From Candidatus Iainarchaeum sp. (GTDB lineage Archaea; Iainarchaeota; Iainarchaeia; Iainarchaeales; DTGL01): a stretch of 64,000 bases of DNA. Position 1 is the first letter of the stretch; each line of letters opens with the position of its first letter. The stretch covers positions 4,618 to 68,617 of the forward strand of contig JAOAJX010000002.1 of NCBI GenBank assembly GCA_026413945.1, read 5' to 3'. A program made the position numbers and the translations under genes. The notes beneath the pieces are model-generated. The model was not told the origin of the DNA and searched no databases. It saw only the letters and a list, made by a program, of their open reading frames with translations. This document shows, one piece after another, positions 18,198 through 62,044 of the stretch.

Positions 18198-19334
18198 CTA
18201 CCTAAATCTTAATAGCATTGGCAGAAAGCCCCAAAATCTAGGTTTAGAGAGCATCTTTGGAATAAATCTACTTGGCCAATCCATATCTCCATGCTCTGAC
18301 AAAAATTCACCGAGGTTTGCTTTCTGCGCTCTTATAAATAGTTTGTCTAACGTATTTTCGCTTAATTTGTTAAGATATGAGCGCATCTTCCAGTGTAAAA
18401 TAAGCTCTTTTGTGATTGGTTTAAGCAAAAATTTGTAGTTTTCCAAGCCAGTATTATTTCTGAAGTTACTGTCAATTGCCCGAGCGCAAATTTTTGCTGC
18501 ATTAAGGCCCATTATAATGCCTCCGCCGGTTGTTGCCTTTGCATGGAAGGCTGCATCACCCACGAGTAAAATATTATTATTTATCGGCTCATTAATTGGT
18601 GGCCCGCAGGGTATCTTAAAAGATGATTCTTCTATTTTTTCAAAATCAAGCAAATATTTCTTTTTAAATTCATCAAAAGCTTCTTTAGGGTTAATGCCAA
18701 ATGATGTTGCAATGCCAATCCTTGCAATTGAATTATTTTCAGGTATAATCCAAGCAAAAAAACCTTTAGCAAAAGAGCCCAAGTAAAGCTTCACTTTTTT
18801 GCTCTCAAAAGAACCATTTGCACGAATTTGGTATGAATTAAGATAGTGGCTTTTGTCTGGTTTTACACCAATGATTTCCCTAGTGCGAGAATTAACTCCG
18901 TCTGCGCCAACAACAACCTTTGCCTTTCTAAGTTCGCCTCTGTTCTTCTTTTGAATGAAAATATTCTCTTTGCGAACATCAATAAGCTTCGACTCAAATT
19001 CAACTTTAACACCATTTTTGATTGCATCCTTAAGAAGCATTAAATCAAATTCTTTGCGTGAAATAACCAAAGCCACGGGCACATCTTTTTCAACTAAGAT
19101 TTTGTGCCCAGAAGGAGAAAAGATTTCTGCACCATTTATCTCGTTTACTGTGCAATTATTTGCATTAATACCAAGCTCTCTAAGGCCAGTCACGGAAAGT
19201 AATCCGGCGCAATGTTCTGGTGTACCAACATTTGGGTGTTCTTCGATGAGAGTAACATCCCAACCATTTTTTGATAGTTCAGAAGCTGTCATAATGCCGG
19301 CAGGACCAGCACCGGCTACAAACACAGCACACAT
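18198..19334 (-). CDS. geranylgeranyl reductase family (digeranylgeranylglycerophospholipid reductase)
   Basis: GAGPAG, PEHCAG, GADG, FAWIIP, LVGDAA...TGGGI. Confidence 0.9.
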   Translation of the reverse strand: MCAVFVAGAGPAGIMTASELSKNGWDVTLIEEHPNVGTPEHCAGLLSVTGLRELGINANNCTVNEINGAEIFSPSGHKILVEKDVPVALVISRKEFDLMLLKDAIKNGVKVEFESKLIDVRKENIFIQKKNRGELRKAKVVVGADGVNSRTREIIGVKPDKSHYLNSYQIRANGSFESKKVKLYLGSFAKGFFAWIIPENNSIARIGIATSFGINPKEAFDEFKKKYLLDFEKIEESSFKIPCGPPINEPINNNILLVGDAAFHAKATTGGGIIMGLNAAKICARAIDSNFRNNTGLENYKFLLKPITKELILHWKMRSYLNKLSENTLDKLFIRAQKANLGEFLSEHGDMDWPSRFIPKMLSKPRFWGFLPMLLRFR

Positions 19335-19391: not shown

Positions 19392-22300
19392 TTAGCCCCT
19401 ATATGCCCATCTTGGGCCTCTTCTTTGAGTTTCTGCTTTTCCACCACCAAAGCTGCTGTTCTTTCGCTTTAGAATATATAAGATTATAAGCCCAACTATA
19501 AGCAACAAAAAGAGTATTACTACTGCATAAAGAATTACTTCTAAGATGCCCCCTCCAGGCAATTGCTGCTCAAGCACTAATGCAAATGCTGTTGGCTCAA
19601 ATGCATTTTTAGCTTTTAGCGCTTGGTATTCAGCTGCGTTTATTGGTGTTTTAAGGTAGTATTCCACTATAATATCTTCAGAATCCTTTTTTTGTGGCTT
19701 AAACAGCAACACAGGATCATCTTTTATGACTTCAAAGGCTACGTCAGATTTTATTTGGGAAGCATTTTTTGCAAGATCTTTTGGAATGTTTTCCCATAAA
19801 AGGATTTTATCATCCGATGACTTGAATTGCAAAAATACTTTTATATAATATTTTGTAACATTTTTATCTTTTATCATTAAAACCTTTATTATTTTCTTTG
19901 CTGATAACTCAACAGTTTTCTTTGCCGCTTCCTCGGCAGCATCATTAGCAAAACCATTTGCCAAAAGAAGTTCTTTTGCTATATCTTTGCTTATCTCAAG
20001 CACTTTTGTTTCAGCCTCTGAGAAACCGTAGTTTTCAAACAGAGCATTCAGTTTTGCGGATGCTTCATTTGCCTTTTCAATGGCGCTGTCATAATCGCCT
20101 TTGCTGTAATTTGTGTTTGCATCGAATATTGCTTGAAGCACCGCATTGTAAAGATCAGTTGCTTCTTTGCTTATTTCAAGATTGTAGCTCCTTATGCTTT
20201 GCAACATATTTGCAGCTTCCGTTCTTTTTGTCATTATATCTGATATTTTTTTCTCGGCTTCAGTTTTCTTTGGCGGCTGCGTTGAAGTAATCCCAATACC
20301 GACGTTTACTGTTGCTAAAGCTTCATTGCCTGCTTTGTCTAAAGCAACTGCCTTGAGGGTGTAACTTCCTTTTGGTAAATTTGCAGTATTCCAACTATGT
20401 GACCAATAAAGTCCTTCCTCAGAGGCTGTTGTAAGCGTTGTTATTTTGTTATTGTCAATGTAAAATGTGACACTTTCCATTTTTGTTTGTGACTCATTAA
20501 TCTTAACCTTAAGCAAATAAGTGCCATCAATAGAAGCCCCTTGCTCTGGCGCAATCCAGACTATTTCAGGCTTTTTTGTATCTATTTCGAAAGTTTTTAT
20601 TGTTTCTTCAAGATTATCCGCAATAACTCTTATTTTTGCAACACCATCATCTCCACTTTCAACAGTAAATGTTGCAGTGAAGTCATCATCAGTAATGGGG
20701 CCTTTAATCTTAATCCAGTCGCTATCTGATGCTTTTTTTATGTAAACATATGCATCTATAAGCTCATCAGTAGATCTAATCCTAACGCTTTTGCTTCCTG
20801 CATTTACATATTGTGATATGTCAACTACGACTTTTGCTGCAGCTGTAGCAATATTAACGCTAGCAATGTCGCTCTCATTGCCAGCATTATCAATTGCAAG
20901 TACTTTGTAGTAGTATTTTGTTCCACTGCTTGTTTTTGTATCAGTCCATGTTGTATCAACAAGAATTGCTCGCCTGTTATTTTCATCTATATTAAAATCG
21001 CTTGCCGTACCTCTGTAAACGCGGTATTCCTTTATGCCGCTTCTTGCATCTGTCGAGGCATTCCAAGTAAGTTTTACATTGTTGTTATCAATTACTGCTC
21101 CAAGGTTGCTCGGCTTACTGGGCTTTGTAAAGTCGATCTTCACAGTGAATGTAGCAACATTGCTGCAAATGCCATTGGCATCACATGCGCGAACTTTCAA
21201 ATAATATACGCCTTCATTTAAATTTTTTAAATCTAAGCGCCTATTTGAACAATAGCTGTTTGAATCTATTACTTTGTCAGGTTCTTTCGCAGCTGAAGTA
21301 TCCCAAGTGCATGAATAACCTATTGCTCCAGGTATCGCATTCCAAGTTATTATAACATTTCTGTCTTTGCTCCAAACATTGTTTTTGTGTGTATTTGATG
21401 AAAATTCAGGCAAAGATGGGAGTATACGTATATTTGGTTTTATTTTGTTGCAATCTGAGAGTTCGCTTTCATTGCCGCTAAAATCAACAGCGGAAATCCT
21501 AAAATAATAGTTTAGATCGCTATTGAGATCTTGTAAAACATAATTTGTTCTGGTTGTAAAACCAGCAAATGTGCCAGTCGCCTTTGTGAAGTTGCAATCA
21601 TTTGTTCTATAGTATATCTTGTAGCCATTCAGATCATAATCTGTATTAGCACTCCATGTAAGTGTTATTGAGCCAGGCCCAGCATATGTAATTAAGCGCA
21701 ATGGCTTAGCTGGTGGGGTGTTGTCTGAGTAGTGAAAGATTACATTGCAGTCCGCACTATTTCTCGTTTCTGATTGGTTCAAAGCACGATCATAAGCAAA
21801 AGCCCTGGTGTTATAACTTCCAGTTCGATCTATGGCTAACTCATTGTAATCACAAACATATGTTCTGCCGCCATCCGCTGTGGAGCAGGCATTTGAAAAG
21901 TTGAAGCTACTGTTCCTTTGTATACCTATTATTGCTATTGTTGCGGTTGCTACACCACTTGCAGTATCGCTTAAGGTGAACTTTAAATTGTTGCTTGTTA
22001 TGTTTGTATTACTATTACAGTTAACATCTGGTGAGGTAAATTTGATTGTTGGTGGAGTATTATCAACATAAAAAACCTTGGAAGATATCTTATTGAAGTC
22101 ATTTATTGTATTAACTTGTTTTTCATAAAAATTCATGTCCAAGAAATAATTGCCATCTGAAATTATAGGTAATGTTATATTAACAAAACATCTCACAAAG
22201 CTCGTAAAATTTGGGCTTTGGCAAAAACCTAAGTTTTGATCTGAAAGATTGTGTGAGCTTATAAAATTTTGGAATTGTCCTTGAACATTGCTATAATAGA

Positions 22301-22517
22301 AATCAACCAATAACTCTTTATCGGTGCTGCCATTTATATCTGAGTCCATTACGTTGAAATCAACCCTTTGTAATCCACTTTTAAAGTACACTCCTTCCAT
22401 GGGCGCAATTAGCTGTATTGCTGGCTCTGCACCAATTGCTGAAGTCGTAAAAATAGCACAAATAATGAGTAAAACAAATACCTTTTTTAAACAAAATTTT
22501 GAATTTCCTTTAACCAA
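19392..22517 (-). CDS. large cell-surface protein with Fn3/Ig-like repeats, C-terminal TM anchor and RWAYRG tail
   Basis: Signal-like N-terminus; Fn3 motifs (LTW..N...GYKIYY; YYFRISAVD..GNES; DKAGN); TM near the C-terminus. TTG start after SD GGGTGA. Confidence 0.8.
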   Translation of the reverse strand: MVKGNSKFCLKKVFVLLIICAIFTTSAIGAEPAIQLIAPMEGVYFKSGLQRVDFNVMDSDINGSTDKELLVDFYYSNVQGQFQNFISSHNLSDQNLGFCQSPNFTSFVRCFVNITLPIISDGNYFLDMNFYEKQVNTINDFNKISSKVFYVDNTPPTIKFTSPDVNCNSNTNITSNNLKFTLSDTASGVATATIAIIGIQRNSSFNFSNACSTADGGRTYVCDYNELAIDRTGSYNTRAFAYDRALNQSETRNSADCNVIFHYSDNTPPAKPLRLITYAGPGSITLTWSANTDYDLNGYKIYYRTNDCNFTKATGTFAGFTTRTNYVLQDLNSDLNYYFRISAVDFSGNESELSDCNKIKPNIRILPSLPEFSSNTHKNNVWSKDRNVIITWNAIPGAIGYSCTWDTSAAKEPDKVIDSNSYCSNRRLDLKNLNEGVYYLKVRACDANGICSNVATFTVKIDFTKPSKPSNLGAVIDNNNVKLTWNASTDARSGIKEYRVYRGTASDFNIDENNRRAILVDTTWTDTKTSSGTKYYYKVLAIDNAGNESDIASVNIATAAAKVVVDISQYVNAGSKSVRIRSTDELIDAYVYIKKASDSDWIKIKGPITDDDFTATFTVESGDDGVAKIRVIADNLEETIKTFEIDTKKPEIVWIAPEQGASIDGTYLLKVKINESQTKMESVTFYIDNNKITTLTTASEEGLYWSHSWNTANLPKGSYTLKAVALDKAGNEALATVNVGIGITSTQPPKKTEAEKKISDIMTKRTEAANMLQSIRSYNLEISKEATDLYNAVLQAIFDANTNYSKGDYDSAIEKANEASAKLNALFENYGFSEAETKVLEISKDIAKELLLANGFANDAAEEAAKKTVELSAKKIIKVLMIKDKNVTKYYIKVFLQFKSSDDKILLWENIPKDLAKNASQIKSDVAFEVIKDDPVLLFKPQKKDSEDIIVEYYLKTPINAAEYQALKAKNAFEPTAFALVLEQQLPGGGILEVILYAVVILFLLLIVGLIILYILKRKNSSFGGGKAETQRRGPRWAYRG

Positions 22518-22622
22518 AATTATCACCCTCACCAAATAAATATTTAGATAAAATCTTTCTTATACTAAAATCTCCTCTAAAAATGTTTTTAATACTTTTT
22601 AAAGTGTTTTATTATTGATAGT

Positions 22623-59522: not shown

Positions 59523-60182
59523 TTAGTGAGAGCGATTCTCAAGTATTTTATTTAGTGCGTTAATTTCCATCTGCAGCAAATCCCGAATTTCACCTTTTGC
59601 GCTCTTTATTTCTTGTTTTAATCGTTCCATTTCAGCTTTAATTTCATTTCCTGGCTTTTGTGACCAACTATTAAATTTCTCAAGATAAGCTTTGATAAGT
59701 TTTCTCTGCCTTGGATCATGAAGCTCTTGTGCAGCATGTGGCGTTTTCCTCAATAAGGAAATGGCCTCCCTTTCATGCCAACTGCCAGTTGCTTTAATTT
59801 CACCAATAACGGTTCTTATTGATTGTTCTCCAACTTTAAGCTTTCTAGCAAGCTCTCCTTTACTCCTAACGCCTTTTAATATTTGTTCTACAACTTTTTG
59901 TCTAAGAGCAGCTAGTCTTCTTCTTTCTTTAATAATAATTGCCCTTTTATGCTCAGCAACAATCGACATTGTTTCTGGCTCTAAAGATAAGCGGAAAAGA
60001 TCTCTTTGTACAGCGTCTTGGCTTATTCCCAGCATTGTCGCGAGTTCTTTTGTTGGTATTCCTGGCCTTCTAGTTATAATTTCAATCAATTTCTTGCGCC
60101 TTTCCGCAATGTCTGACCGCCTCAATTTTGGCAACCTGAAAGGCTCTTTTGATGTCATTCCACGATTCTTGCTTATTGGCAT
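59523..60182 (-). CDS. orphan tandem-HTH protein (paralog A)
   Basis: HTH1 PGIPTKELATMLGISQDAVQRDL; HTH2 SKGELARKLKVGEQSI; shared C-terminal helical hairpin. Confidence 0.7.
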   Translation of the reverse strand: MPISKNRGMTSKEPFRLPKLRRSDIAERRKKLIEIITRRPGIPTKELATMLGISQDAVQRDLFRLSLEPETMSIVAEHKRAIIIKERRRLAALRQKVVEQILKGVRSKGELARKLKVGEQSIRTVIGEIKATGSWHEREAISLLRKTPHAAQELHDPRQRKLIKAYLEKFNSWSQKPGNEIKAEMERLKQEIKSAKGEIRDLLQMEINALNKILENRSH

Positions 60183-60183
60183 C

Positions 60184-61209
60184 CTATTTTCTCCTTATTA
60201 GATCACCCAAGCTAAAGCGCTTTTTTTCTTCTGGCTCTTTTTCTTTTTGATCGCCCTTATATGCCCAGCGACCGCCTGCTTGCACATCCTCGGTAATTAC
60301 GTCTTCAAGCACTTCACTGGTGTCTTTATGGCTTTCTGTCTCAAATAAGCTTCTGCGCTTGCTTTTCTTCTTTGCGATTGACAAAGCAAGGAAGATGGCA
60401 ACAACCAGCAAAACCAAGGTTAAGAAAATAGCACTATTTTCAAGAGTAAGAAAACCAAATGCTGGAGTCTTTTTTTCTTCCATTTTTTCCTCAACCTTTC
60501 CGACTCTTTCTGTCAAAACAGTAATTTGTTCATTTAGATCATTATACTGAGCTTTTGCTTCTGAAAGCGATGCCTTTTGCTCATTAAGTGAATCATTTGT
60601 GCTTGAAAGGCTTGTGCTTAGCTGATCAACCTCAGCTTCCAAATCTTGCAATGATTTAGACAATGACTGCAGCTCATTTTTGAGCGATGAAACTTCTGCT
60701 TCATTATTGCTTAGTTTGGTTTCGAGTGATGATGTTTTATCTTTAACCGCATTTATTTCACTCTTAAGGGAATTCAGCTCTGATTTAAGTGAGCTTACAT
60801 CTCTGTTCAAAGCATCAAAATTCGAGGCACTTGCAACCTTGAAAACATTAAAAGTTACAGAATCTTTGCTTTTAGTTGAATTAGCTGCTAAAAGACGTAT
60901 TTCAAGCTCATATTTTCCTGCCTTTAAGGGATTTAGCAGAAGCACAAGGCTTTTATCCCCCAAAGGCGAATATTCCTTATAATAGGCAACATATTCTGCA
61001 TTTGTCTCAACACCTAGCTTTTGAGTGAATATAACCTTATCACCCAAAAGCACACGTATCTCATCAAAGCCGGTTTCGGAAATTTTAGCAAAAGCTGAGA
61101 AACTCGTGCCTTCTGGAACATTTTCTGGCAAAATAAGATTCAATGCAAAAGCATTGGTTAGGAAAAACCATAAAACAAATAATACAAAAGCCCTTTTTAA
61201 AAAAACCAT
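60184..61209 (-). CDS. exported Ig-like plus coiled-coil protein with TM anchor and RWAYKG tail
   Basis: Signal peptide, about 120-aa heptad region, TM, cytoplasmic tail; SD GGTGA-TTTT-ATG. Confidence 0.75.
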   Translation of the reverse strand: MVFLKRAFVLFVLWFFLTNAFALNLILPENVPEGTSFSAFAKISETGFDEIRVLLGDKVIFTQKLGVETNAEYVAYYKEYSPLGDKSLVLLLNPLKAGKYELEIRLLAANSTKSKDSVTFNVFKVASASNFDALNRDVSSLKSELNSLKSEINAVKDKTSSLETKLSNNEAEVSSLKNELQSLSKSLQDLEAEVDQLSTSLSSTNDSLNEQKASLSEAKAQYNDLNEQITVLTERVGKVEEKMEEKKTPAFGFLTLENSAIFLTLVLLVVAIFLALSIAKKKSKRRSLFETESHKDTSEVLEDVITEDVQAGGRWAYKGDQKEKEPEEKKRFSLGDLIRRK

Positions 61210-61333: not shown

Positions 61334-62044
61334 CTAATCTCGCCTCTTCTCGAGTATTTTTTTTAGGGCGTTGACCATCATCTGAAGCTTGTCACGCTCT
61401 TCACCACTGGCTCTTTTAATTTCCAAATTAAGTCTTTTTATCTCGCCATCAATGGCTGGTGTTGGTCTATCCTTCCATTCGGCAAATTTCTCAAGGTAAG
61501 TAGTTAATAGCATTCTTTGCCTCTTATCCATTAATGGCATTTCTCCAACGGCTGATCTTGCAAAGTTTAGTCTTGCTACAAGTTCCTTTTCATAATCGCT
61601 TCCTTTTGTCATAATCTCCCTTACTAAGCTATGAAGAAACTCCTTGCCTATGCCCAGGGCTTTAATGAGTTCTTCCTGACTTAAAATATTGCGCCTTATC
61701 AATTCAAGCAGCTCTCTTTTTTTTATTTCCCTCTTCAAACGTTTATTCAATTCCTTGGCTCTCTTACTCTCTAAAACTACTTGCTTTGTTCTCGGATCAT
61801 TTAATAGCTTAGCTATATAAGACTCAACTGTTGACTTTGGCATACCAAGCATTTGTGCAAGTTCTCTGTGTGTTATCGTTGGTCTTTCACGCAAGATTTC
61901 AATAATTTGCATGCATCTCTGCTCTGCTTCTGCCTTGTTGGCCATTCTTCTCCCAAGAGGTTTTCCTTTTCCATGACTATTTGGGCCTAATGGCATCCTT
62001 CTCATCGATGCTGACATAATCATGGCCTCACTAAAAATCAGCAC
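61334..62044 (-). CDS. orphan tandem-HTH protein (paralog B); true start probably further downstream (62023-61996)
   Basis: HTH1 PTITHRELAQMLGMPKSTVESYI; HTH2 SQEELIKALGIGKEFL; C-terminus RQR.L..YLEKF..W...RD.LQM..NAL.KILE shared with paralog A. Confidence 0.7.
   Translation of the reverse strand: MLIFSEAMIMSASMRRMPLGPNSHGKGKPLGRRMANKAEAEQRCMQIIEILRERPTITHRELAQMLGMPKSTVESYIAKLLNDPRTKQVVLESKRAKELNKRLKREIKKRELLELIRRNILSQEELIKALGIGKEFLHSLVREIMTKGSDYEKELVARLNFARSAVGEMPLMDKRQRMLLTTYLEKFAEWKDRPTPAIDGEIKRLNLEIKRASGEERDKLQMMVNALKKILEKRRD

What the first reader, a model, noticed from the sequence alone, without database searches (positions are those of the whole stretch)
19395..19418. RWAY[RK]G cytoplasmic-tail motif shared by two unrelated single-pass surface proteins
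Seen: the 1047-aa Fn3 protein ends ...RRGPRWAYRG, and the coiled-coil protein at 60184-61209 carries ...AGGRWAYKG (60253-60276) in its post-TM tail. Their ectodomains are unrelated and the genes are 41 kb apart. Inference: a short linear motif for docking surface proteins to a cytoplasmic adaptor or scaffold, or an unrecognised sorting signal.
Basis: partly seen in the sequence, partly recalled or inferred. Interest (0 to 1): 0.62.

Follow-up and report, generated by a model that had tools for sequence, protein, structure and literature searches.

The report
Conserved tryptophan motif in archaeal surface-protein tails
Two otherwise unrelated surface proteins of a tiny DPANN archaeon (Iainarchaeota) share a short tryptophan-containing motif in their intracellular tails; it is kept across the whole order and is among the best-conserved parts of both proteins, so something inside the cell probably recognises it, but that partner is unknown.

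Summary
The 1047-aa Fn3/Ig protein (A) ends in GPRWAYRG, and the 341-aa Ig/coiled-coil stalk protein (B) carries GGRWAYKG in its tail.

It is not chance:
- RWAY[RK]G is expected 0.002 times in this 0.95-Mb genome and occurs twice.
- Orthologues of both proteins across the order keep [GP][KR][WF]x[YFW][KR][GDE] (A, at the C-terminus) or G[KR]W[AS][FY] (B), while the rest of the tail diverges.
- In a 26-sequence alignment of B (27% mean column identity), the tail Trp is the only invariant residue.
- Of 118 long-tailed B representatives from 1.8 billion proteins, 107 have [KR]W.
- A DNA-pattern census of 196 genomes found the strict motif only in A-type and B-type tails (20 of 23 hits; the other 3 were chance).
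- The motif lies about 40 residues after the membrane helix in both families, in tails predicted to be disordered.

The motif is part of a shared C-terminal anchor module: a TGF-like pre-TM motif, the TM helix, a linker and the motif. The only BLASTP similarity between A and B lies in this module.

Best reading: a docking motif for an unidentified intracellular partner (confidence about 0.5). Rivals are an extended archaeosortase signal and a lipid-interface anchor. No family model or paper found describes it.

The parts
19392..22535 (-). Protein A: a 1047-aa type-I envelope protein. It has a signal peptide, Fn3/Big Ig-like domains, a membrane-proximal helical-bundle plus beta module, a TM helix and a 25-aa tail.
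   Evidence: ORF. Pfam fn3, Big_7 and Big_13 hits. The C-terminal module is found in 181 of 196 genomes of the order. AF2 of the last 296 aa gives pLDDT 91, with no PDB fold match at E<0.01.
19470..19547 (-). TM helix of A (ILEVILYAVVILFLLLIVGLIILYIL), preceded by EQQLPGGG
   Evidence: AF2 helix 246-276 of the 296-aa construct
19395..19469 (-). Cytoplasmic tail of A (KRKNSSFGGGKAETQRRGPRWAYRG)
   Evidence: Sequence. AF2 confidence is low over the tail. This genus has a shortened tail (23-24 aa); most orthologues have 42-50 aa.
19395..19418 (-). The finding: motif GPRWAYRG at the extreme C-terminus of A
   Evidence: Sequence. The order-wide consensus over 50 orthologues is [GP][KR][WF][ASK][YWF][KR][GED], followed by the end of the protein.
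60184..61209 (-). Protein B: a 341-aa type-I stalk protein. It has a signal peptide, an Ig-like beta-sandwich, a 116-aa single helix (coiled coil), a TM helix and a tail of about 60 aa.
   Evidence: ORF. AF2 model. The family is found across the order and not in the sister order.
60442..60465 (-). Pre-TM motif PAFGFLTL. Order-wide it reads [TA]G[FL][FVL][ST][LF][GE] and resembles PGF-CTERM.
   Evidence: The G of this motif (G252) is one of only two nearly invariant residues of the family besides the tail Trp. Sequence.
60373..60435 (-). TM helix of B
   Evidence: AF2 helix 259-281; hydropathy
60253..60276 (-). Motif GGRWAYKG in the tail of B. W315 is the only invariant column of the 26-sequence family alignment.
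   Evidence: Of 118 long-tailed representatives, 107 have [KR]W. Position table.
60187..60225 (-). Second conserved tail element, KKRFSLGDLIRRK, at the C-terminus of B. A related RFSLPRIK / GFFDRIG-type element lies upstream of the Trp motif in long-tailed A orthologues, so the order of the two elements is permuted between A and B.
   Evidence: There is a small AF2 confidence islet at residues 332-338.

Best explanation
G[P]-[KR]-W-A-Y-[KR]-G is the conserved core of a cytoplasmic short linear motif. It belongs to a C-terminal anchor module with four parts:
- a TGF/PGF-like motif at the outer membrane face;
- one TM helix;
- a disordered linker of about 40 residues rich in K, E, G and S;
- the basic-aromatic-small-aromatic-basic motif.

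Two envelope-protein families of the DPANN order that contains Candidatus Iainarchaeum carry this module, and only these two. A is a large Fn3/Ig protein of about 1000 aa. B is a stalk protein of about 340 aa with an Ig domain and a coiled coil.

Proposed mechanism: the Trp and the aromatic residue two positions on lie on one face of a short extended peptide, flanked by Lys/Arg and by Gly/Pro. They dock into a pocket of one shared intracellular or membrane-peripheral partner. Both envelope proteins are thereby positioned, retained or assembled by the same machinery, and this is how the cell interior is coupled to its surface coat.

Shown here: the motif exists; it is cytoplasmic by topology; it is under protein-level selection; it is exclusive to the two families; its spacing from the membrane is fixed; and its context is predicted to be disordered.

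Inferred: that it binds a protein, and what that binding achieves.
For: 1. Conservation against a diverging background.
- All 9 in-family hits of a DNA pattern are in frame, in post-TM tails, and use different codons.
- 50 of 71 sampled proteins with the A C-terminal module carry [KR][WF]x[YFW] 0-5 residues from the C-terminus. Of the 21 others, about ten have short basic tails (3-19 aa; they include the ~735-aa paralogue subfamily), and the rest have longer tails with only a partial motif (KWSAP, KWEANKP) or none.
- In B, W315 is the only invariant column of a 26-sequence alignment with 27% mean column identity.
- 107 of 118 long-tailed B representatives from 1.84 billion proteins have [KR]W, and about 6 more have [KR]F.

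2. Exclusivity. In G000 only A and B carry the motif. In 196 genomes, 20 of 23 strict-pattern hits lie in A-type or B-type tails, against 6 hits for the reversed control pattern.

3. SLiM-like context. AF2 gives the B tail a pLDDT of about 41, with islets of 50 or more exactly at R314/W315 and at 332-338. The A tail is also low-confidence.

4. Independence from position. The motif is C-terminal in A but 19-31 residues from the end in B. Its order relative to the RFSL-type element is permuted. One A orthologue (G176) carries the unit twice.

5. Fixed distance from the TM helix. The median is 41 aa in A (n=50) and 40 aa in B (n=29).

6. Sequence specificity. Flanking Gly/Pro, a small residue between the aromatics, and a basic residue followed by Gly/Asp/Glu are more specific than a generic interfacial patch.

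7. Partial co-variation. In family f2 genus g35, A reads GRFS[YF][KR]G and B reads KRKFSF or has no motif. The sister genus g47 keeps W in both proteins.
Against: - No partner was identified and no binding was tested.
- W/F and Y/F/W exchange freely in A, and position +3 of B is often non-aromatic (V, T, H, A, S in about 40%). This tolerance also fits a lipid-interface role.
- Co-variation between A and B breaks down in several families: A reads KFAW and B reads KWAF in f17 and f24.
- Both proteins carry a sortase-like pre-TM motif. If they are cleaved there, the tail leaves the mature protein, and a permanent docking role would be impossible.
- B has lost the motif in a few lineages (G038, G177) while A keeps it.
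Confidence: 0.5

Rival explanations
1. Extended archaeosortase-type sorting signal. A and B would be substrates of one of the small archaeosortase-family enzymes. The TGF/PGF-like motif would be the cleavage site. The conserved tail would act only on the precursor, for example to present it to the sortase or to bring it to the site of envelope growth, and would then be cut off with the TM helix. The released TM-tail remnant might even have a role of its own.
For: - B has a pre-TM [TA]G[FL][FVL][ST][LF][GE] motif order-wide, and its G252 is nearly invariant. Many A orthologues show the same (AGFFALGD, TGLFALSD, PGFSGF).
- G000 has two PF09721 hits above the curated cut-off (C17:26453, C18:37119), and 150 of 196 genomes of the order have one.
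- The B C-terminal HMM aligns end to end with motif-bearing A proteins at up to 39 bits, against 17 bits or less for TM-only background. This fits a shared, mobile CTERM-like module.
- Earlier agents independently noted 'TGF-like motif + TM + Lys tail' substrates next to mini-archaeosortases in other Iainarchaeota.
Against: - Known tripartite signals end in a short basic cluster. Here the tails are 23-75 aa long and hold the best-conserved residue of the protein.
- Other type-I proteins of G000 with GF-type or PEI-type pre-TM motifs have short tails without the motif, so the motif is not needed for that kind of signal.
- NCBIfam gives no CTERM-domain hit at E<=1.
- The archaeosortase genes are not adjacent to A or B.
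- The presence of archaeosortase does not track the motif: f30 and f31 have the enzyme, yet in f31 B is absent or gives only marginal hits and the A module was found in only one of seven genomes, weakly. In G000's own A the pre-TM motif is degenerate (LPGGGILE).
Confidence: 0.2
2. Lipid-interface cleat. The basic-aromatic-small-aromatic-basic patch inserts into the cytoplasmic membrane interface. It would brace the single TM anchor of proteins that are pulled from outside, or sense or shape membrane curvature, without any protein partner.
For: - Trp, Tyr and Phe flanked by Lys/Arg are typical interfacial residues.
- The aromatics interchange (W/F, Y/F/W) across families.
- A third type-I family (G000 C17:58529-59458) also keeps a Trp near the end of its short tail, in a different context ([KR]EPWxE or KKRFEWE).
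- The GGR-like neighbour of A ends in KP[KR][FM]W followed by a hydrophobic helix.
Against: - About 40 residues of charged, disordered linker separate the motif from the membrane, at a conserved distance. A cleat would be expected close to the TM helix.
- The flanking G/P and the small middle residue are conserved.
- About 30 other type-I proteins in the same genome manage with 5-15 aa basic tails.
- Hydrophobic-moment analysis of the tails is no better than shuffles (z about 0).
Confidence: 0.15
3. Regulatory handle of another kind, such as a degron or protease-recognition site or a site of post-translational modification, controlling turnover of the two envelope proteins.
For: The motif is a conserved, exposed peptide in a disordered tail. 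In A it lies at the extreme C-terminus, where C-terminal degrons are commonly read.
Against: In B the motif is internal, 19-31 aa from the end. No modifying enzyme or protease is linked by gene context. Nothing was tested.
Confidence: 0.07
4. Chance resemblance, or neutral retention from a common ancestral tail, without function.
For: The C-terminal modules of A and B may share ancestry.
Against: The motif persists order-wide while the surrounding tail diverges almost completely. Codon usage at the motif varies. In B the Trp is the only invariant residue. The pattern census far exceeds its control.
Confidence: 0.03

Closest known systems
Tripartite C-terminal sorting domains of prokaryotes (PGF-CTERM/archaeosortase A, PEP-CTERM/exosortase, LPXTG/sortase, GlyGly-CTERM/rhombosortase, MYXO-CTERM/myxosortase)
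   Same: A small C-terminal module, with a signature motif at the outer face followed by a TM helix and then basic residues, is attached to unrelated ectodomains. A TGF/PGF-like motif is present. Archaeosortase-family genes are present in the genome.
   Different: The tail is 23-75 aa long rather than a few Arg/Lys, and it holds the most conserved residue of the protein. There are only two client families per genome. No CTERM HMM matches. There is no gene adjacency to a sortase. Cleavage is untested.
Short linear motifs in cytoplasmic tails of eukaryotic single-pass receptors (for example YxxPhi, NPxY, KKxx, or the integrin beta-tail motifs that bind talin and kindlin)
   Same: A peptide of 4-7 residues forms an island of conservation in a disordered tail, is shared by proteins with unrelated ectodomains, and sits at a fairly fixed distance from the membrane.
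   Different: The organism is archaeal (DPANN). The sequence pattern ([GP][KR]W[AS][YF][KR]G) is different. No adaptor is known. I found no described archaeal counterpart.
Two-component stalk-and-canopy S-layers of Sulfolobales (SlaA canopy, SlaB stalk) and the TM-anchored colossal S-layer protein PySLP of Pyrobaculum (bioRxiv 10.64898/2026.08.21.746120)
   Same: B has the SlaB-like build of beta-sandwich, long coiled coil and C-terminal TM anchor. A is a large Ig-rich, TM-anchored protein. The PySLP preprint notes a conserved basic cytoplasmic tail.
   Different: There is no sequence membership: the SlaB HMM scores 33 bits against a cut-off of 700. Both A and B have their own TM anchor. The PySLP tail is a short basic stub ending in Lys, not a spaced aromatic motif. 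Whether A and B form an S-layer is unknown.
HbYX C-terminal docking motif of proteasomal ATPases (PAN/Rpt, Cdc48)
   Same: A Tyr-containing peptide at the C-terminus of protein A could in principle dock into a pocket.
   Different: HbYX needs Tyr at the penultimate position of the chain. Here Tyr is 2-5 residues from the end in A, and the motif is internal in B. Rejected.

Membership tests
PGF-CTERM / archaeosortase-type tripartite sorting domain | Short signature motif (PGF or similar) immediately before the TM helix | tested here: inconclusive
   B has [TA]G[FL][FVL][ST][LF][GE] order-wide, with G252 nearly invariant. Many A orthologues have AGFFALG or PGFSGF. The window's own A reads LPGGGILE.
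PGF-CTERM / archaeosortase-type tripartite sorting domain | The protein ends in a short cluster of basic residues right after the TM helix | tested here: not met
   Tails are 23-75 aa long and carry conserved motifs. The median distance from the TM helix to the motif is 40-41 aa.
PGF-CTERM / archaeosortase-type tripartite sorting domain | Match to a curated CTERM-domain HMM (such as TIGR04126) | tested here: not met
   The NCBIfam scan of A and B at E<=1 lists no CTERM sorting domain. Pfam lists none either.
PGF-CTERM / archaeosortase-type tripartite sorting domain | A cognate archaeosortase is encoded in the genome | tested here: met
   PF09721 hits above the cut-off at G000 C17:26453-26806 and C18:37119-37538. 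They are not adjacent to A or B.
PGF-CTERM / archaeosortase-type tripartite sorting domain | Proteolytic removal of the TM helix and tail, with lipid attachment | not testable with these tools
   This needs proteomics or biochemistry.
Cytoplasmic-tail short linear motif (SLiM) | Lies in an intrinsically disordered region on the cytoplasmic side | tested here: met
   AF2 gives pLDDT of about 41 over B residues 283-341, and the A tail is low-confidence. Topology follows from the signal peptide, the single TM helix and the positive-inside rule.
Cytoplasmic-tail short linear motif (SLiM) | An island of conservation in otherwise fast-evolving sequence, kept in orthologues | tested here: met
Cytoplasmic-tail short linear motif (SLiM) | Occurs in proteins with unrelated folded domains | tested here: met
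   BLASTP of A against B finds similarity only in the anchor. The anchor modules themselves may be homologous, so fully independent origin is not shown.
Cytoplasmic-tail short linear motif (SLiM) | A defined binding partner or domain | not testable with these tools
   Only single-chain prediction was available. No conserved cytoplasmic neighbour gene was found.
HbYX proteasome-docking motif | Hydrophobic-Tyr-X as the last three residues of the chain | tested here: not met
   A ends ...WAY[KR]G(E). In B the motif is 19-31 aa from the end.
SlaB-type S-layer stalk (for protein B) | Sequence membership (NCBIfam NF040788) | tested here: not met
   33 bits against a cut-off of 700. Only the architecture is alike.
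MinD/FtsA-type amphipathic membrane-targeting helix (for the RFSLGDLI / GFFDRIG element) | Hydrophobic moment clearly above composition-matched shuffles | tested here: not met
   Mean z is -0.4 for B tails and +0.1 for A tails.

The most novel reading that the evidence does not exclude
The Trp motif is the handle by which an intracellular machine grips the two core envelope proteins of Iainarchaeota. Candidates for that machine are the FtsZ/SepF division apparatus, another membrane-proximal scaffold, or the cytoplasmic face of a sortase complex. This would be the first defined adaptor-type linear motif coupling an archaeal surface coat to the cell interior. In the sortase version, cleavage would release a conserved TM-tail peptide that still carries the motif and could report envelope assembly to the cytoplasm.
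Probability: 0.25. Interest if true: 0.8.

Novelty: new variant of a known kind. Interest (0 to 1): 0.55.

Why it matters
How archaeal surface layers are positioned, inserted and tied to events inside the cell is largely unknown. For DPANN archaea, whose surface is also the contact face with any partner cell, almost nothing is known.

In this case the most conserved residue of a conserved envelope stalk protein lies not in the ectodomain but in a disordered cytoplasmic tail. The same peptide also ends a second, unrelated envelope protein. That gives a concrete, testable bait of 7-15 residues for finding the intracellular component that handles the envelope in an uncultivated phylum.

It also defines a C-terminal anchor module that current CTERM-domain libraries do not recognise.

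Tried and rejected
1. HbYX-type C-terminal docking: rejected on position.
2. The double-HTH protein encoded next to B as the general partner: it is adjacent only in G000 and G004.
4. Conserved neighbours. B has none. A is followed by a GGR-like FAD oxidoreductase in 26 of 30 loci, but B is not, so that enzyme is not a shared-context partner.
5. Archaeosortase phyletic correlation: no clean pattern.
6. Amphipathic-helix test of the second tail element: no better than shuffles.
7. Tail-only word searches in 5.8 billion proteins returned only close orthologues, so they could not reveal other clients.
8. A third type-I family with RFEW at its end turned out to conserve a different motif, [KR]EPWxE.
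9. Fold search of A's membrane-proximal module found no PDB match at E<0.01. B's N-terminal domain is a generic Ig-like sandwich.
11. Giant type-II proteins of the genome were inspected for the motif in their N-terminal cytoplasmic modules. They have different aromatic-rich helices, not this motif.
Full report
**What is in the window.** On the minus strand, 19392-22535 encodes a 1047-aa protein (A). It has a signal-peptide-like N-terminus, Fn3 and bacterial-Ig-like domains (Pfam fn3 8.8e-15, Big_7 7.7e-11), one C-terminal TM helix and a 25-residue tail, KRKNSSFGGGKAETQRRGPRWAYRG, followed by a stop. The finding's coordinates 19395-19418 translate exactly to GPRWAYRG.

Also on the minus strand, 60184-61209 encodes a 341-aa protein (B). 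AlphaFold2, run with 26 orthologues, predicts a signal helix, a confident Ig-like beta-sandwich (residues 23-123), one 116-residue helix (128-243), a TM helix (259-281) and a disordered tail (283-341, pLDDT about 41). The tail holds GGRWAYKG at 60253-60276 and ends in KKRFSLGDLIRRK.

Both tails follow a Lys/Arg cluster, so they face the cytoplasm. Record titles of close B orthologues name Candidatus Iainarchaeum. The genome is 0.95 Mb and 37% G+C.

**Is it more than chance?** Within the genome, RWAY occurs only in these two ORFs. About 0.27 RWAY and 0.0023 RWAY[RK]G are expected, and two are observed. Because the match was found post hoc, the stronger argument is conservation.

A back-translated DNA pattern searched in 61 relatives gave 10 hits, 9 of them in the window's own GTDB family, where the reversed control pattern gave none. 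All 9 are in frame, lie in post-TM tails and read G(P)RWAY[KR]G, with different codons for the same residues. The selection is therefore on the peptide and not on the DNA.

**Protein A across the order.** A profile of A's last 330 residues finds the module in 181 of 196 genomes of the order. I read the C-termini of 71 such proteins from about 25 families.
- Fifty carry [KR][WF]x[YFW] 0-5 residues from the C-terminus. Examples are PKWAYKG, GKWGYKGE, SRWSYKGE, GRFSYKGN, GKFAWKGK and KKFKYRG.
- Of the other 21, about ten have tails of only 3-19 residues; these include a shorter (~735-aa) paralogue subfamily. The rest have longer tails with only a partial motif (KWSAP, KWEANKP) or none.
- The position table is [GP]-[KR]-[W32/F18]-[A/S/K]-[Y37/W7/F6]-[KR]-[G/E/D]-end.
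- The rest of the tail is barely alignable.
- Paralogues in the window's own genome that share the membrane-proximal domain lack the motif.

**Protein B across the order.** B is found in most families of the order but not in the sister order of the class, where only coiled-coil noise appears.
- In a 26-sequence alignment with 27% mean column identity, the only invariant column is W315, the motif's Trp. The only other nearly invariant residues are G98 and G252.
- Twenty further orthologues mostly keep [KR]W. A few have [KR]F or have lost the tail.
- An exhaustive HMM search of 1.84 billion representative proteins returned 126 B-family proteins of 280-500 aa. Of these, 118 have tails of at least 30 aa; 107 of the 118 contain [KR]W and about 6 more contain [KR]F. 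KWAF is the commonest form, and the window's RWAY is a minority variant.

**Who else carries it?** A degenerate DNA pattern for [GPAR][KR]W[small][YF][KR]G across 196 genomes gave 23 hits, against 6 for the reversed control. Twenty hits lie in tails of A-type or B-type proteins. The other three are two tiny ORFs and one sulfatase-like protein, in line with the control rate. Within the limits of that pattern, the motif therefore has two client families only.

A third type-I family (G000 C17:58529-59458, ending KKRFEWE) looked like a relaxed match. Its orthologues conserve a different Trp motif, [KR]EPWxE.

1. The distance from the end of the TM helix to the motif is the same in both families. 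The median is 41 aa in A (most 39-44) and 40 aa in B (27-46). The window's genus is an exception, with a shortened A tail.
2. B carries a pre-TM motif, [TA]G[FL][FVL][ST][LF][GE], order-wide. Many A orthologues have one too (AGFFALGD, PGFSGF).
3. The only significant BLASTP alignment between A and B is this anchor region. An HMM of B's C-terminal 105 positions aligns end to end with motif-bearing A proteins at up to 39 bits, while TM-only background in the G000 proteome stays at 17 bits or below. The full B model also picked up A genes of two genomes at 1e-11 and 6e-9.

The two proteins therefore probably share a homologous C-terminal anchor module on unrelated ectodomains.

A second mini-element accompanies the Trp motif. 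It reads RFSLGDLI[KR][KR] at the C-terminus of B, and RFSLPRIK or GFFDRIGG-like upstream of the Trp motif in long-tailed A. Its order relative to the Trp motif is therefore opposite in the two families. One A orthologue (G176) has the pair twice. I could not show that this element is an amphipathic helix, because its hydrophobic moment is no better than shuffles.

**How it most likely works.** The evidence fits a short linear motif. It is a conserved island in a disordered cytoplasmic tail. Its function does not depend on lying at the chain end. It sits at a fixed reach from the membrane. It has specific flanks: Gly/Pro before, a small residue between the two aromatics, and a basic residue plus Gly/Asp/Glu after.

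I therefore favour docking to one shared intracellular or membrane-peripheral partner, which would couple both envelope proteins to the same machinery. My confidence is about 0.5.

In family f2 the change from W to F occurs in both A and B in one genus and in neither in the sister genus. This is what a shared pocket would predict. The pattern is not general, however: in f17 and f24, A reads KFAW and B reads KWAF.

**Rivals.**
- *Extended sortase signal.* The pre-TM TGF-like motif, the two small archaeosortase-family genes in the genome and earlier agents' notes on TGF-type signals next to mini-archaeosortases in other Iainarchaeota keep this alive. In that case the tail would act on the precursor only, or on the released remnant. 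Against it: the long tail is unlike any known tripartite signal; other GF-type or PEI-type proteins of this genome have short tails without the motif; no CTERM HMM matches; and there is neither gene adjacency nor phyletic correlation.
- *Lipid-interface cleat.* This is plausible from the chemistry and from the W/F/Y interchange. It is hard to square with the conserved 40-residue charged spacer and with the specific flanks.
- *Degron or modification site.* This cannot be excluded.
- *Chance.* This is excluded by the conservation data.

**Partner candidates examined.**
- The double-HTH genes flanking B are adjacent only in this genome and one relative. That agrees with an earlier agent's description of a rare cassette, so they are not the general partner.
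- A is followed by a geranylgeranyl-reductase-like FAD enzyme in 26 of 30 loci, but B is not.

**Comparison with the known.** No Pfam or NCBIfam model covers the tails. Database annotation of A orthologues is only 'Ig-like domain-containing protein'. Full-text searches found nothing on such a motif. The nearest published remark is that the Pyrobaculum colossal S-layer protein has a conserved short basic tail ending in Lys (10.64898/2026.08.21.746120).

B resembles SlaB in architecture only: the SlaB HMM scores 33 bits against a cut-off of 700. A's membrane-proximal module folds confidently (pLDDT 91) but has no PDB fold match at E<0.01. Whether A and B form the S-layer of these organisms is not known.

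**Verdict.** I file it as a new variant of known kinds (C-terminal anchor or sorting modules, and tail SLiMs). Interest is moderate to good, because it offers a concrete bait for the unknown link between envelope and cytoplasm in DPANN archaea.

Noticed in passing
window 18198-19334 (-), immediately downstream of protein A: A geranylgeranyl-reductase-like FAD oxidoreductase (Pfam FAD_binding_3, GGR_cat) follows the A gene in 26 of 30 loci across the order. Its C-terminus is a conserved KP[KR][FM]W followed by a hydrophobic helix. This conserved pairing of an envelope-protein gene with a lipid-saturating enzyme gene is unexplained.
   Followed up: partly
G000 contig C17:58529-59458 (outside the window); loci L130-L145: A third type-I surface-protein family (about 300-420 aa, with a pre-TM GLFSL/GLFTL motif) has a short cytoplasmic tail with its own conserved Trp motif. 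It reads [KR]EPW[QML]E in most orthologues and KKRFEWE in this genome.
   Followed up: partly
L115 (G176:C67), A orthologue: The tail carries the two-part unit (KILDKISSGL...GRKWIFKKE, then GLKQLFGNLEF...SKWAFKENADI) twice in tandem. This natural duplication of the tail module argues for modular function.
   Followed up: no
G000 C14:118419-119546 and C15:89667-90749 (outside the window): The two FtsZ homologues end in ...DLGIDFTG and ...DLGLDFIP. The C-terminal peptide of B (RFSLGDLIRRK) is loosely similar in shape (Leu-Gly, then an acidic and a hydrophobic residue). This is a weak lead that B's C-terminus might address an FtsZ-tail-binding protein such as SepF. It was not tested.
   Followed up: no
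G000 contig C18:37750-70424 and C17:3568-8625 (outside the window): The giant (1685-2826 aa) N-terminally anchored surface proteins have conserved aromatic-rich cytoplasmic N-terminal segments (EEKWFELL, KEKWENFKFW, REFYYHLEDRYYEV). Several classes of Iainarchaeota envelope proteins thus carry conserved cytoplasmic handles, each of a different kind.
   Followed up: no
loci L110-L113, L128 and others: A paralogue subfamily of about 735 aa shares A's membrane-proximal module but has only a 3-19-aa basic tail and no Trp motif. It co-exists with the long A form in many genomes (for example G031, G097, G104).
   Followed up: partly
window 59523-60182 and 61334-62044 (-): The two double-HTH paralogues flanking B are found next to B only in this genome and in G004. 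B itself is order-wide, so the cassette is a recent local association.
   Followed up: partly
G000 C16:53320, C17:60968, C17:63402, C20:828, C18:5307 (outside the window): A set of paralogous Cys-rich surface proteins ends in a common signal of the form ...C..C..fsV...PEI(N)x + TM + short basic tail. It looks like a separate, PEF/PEI-type sorting signal and may serve the second archaeosortase.
   Followed up: no
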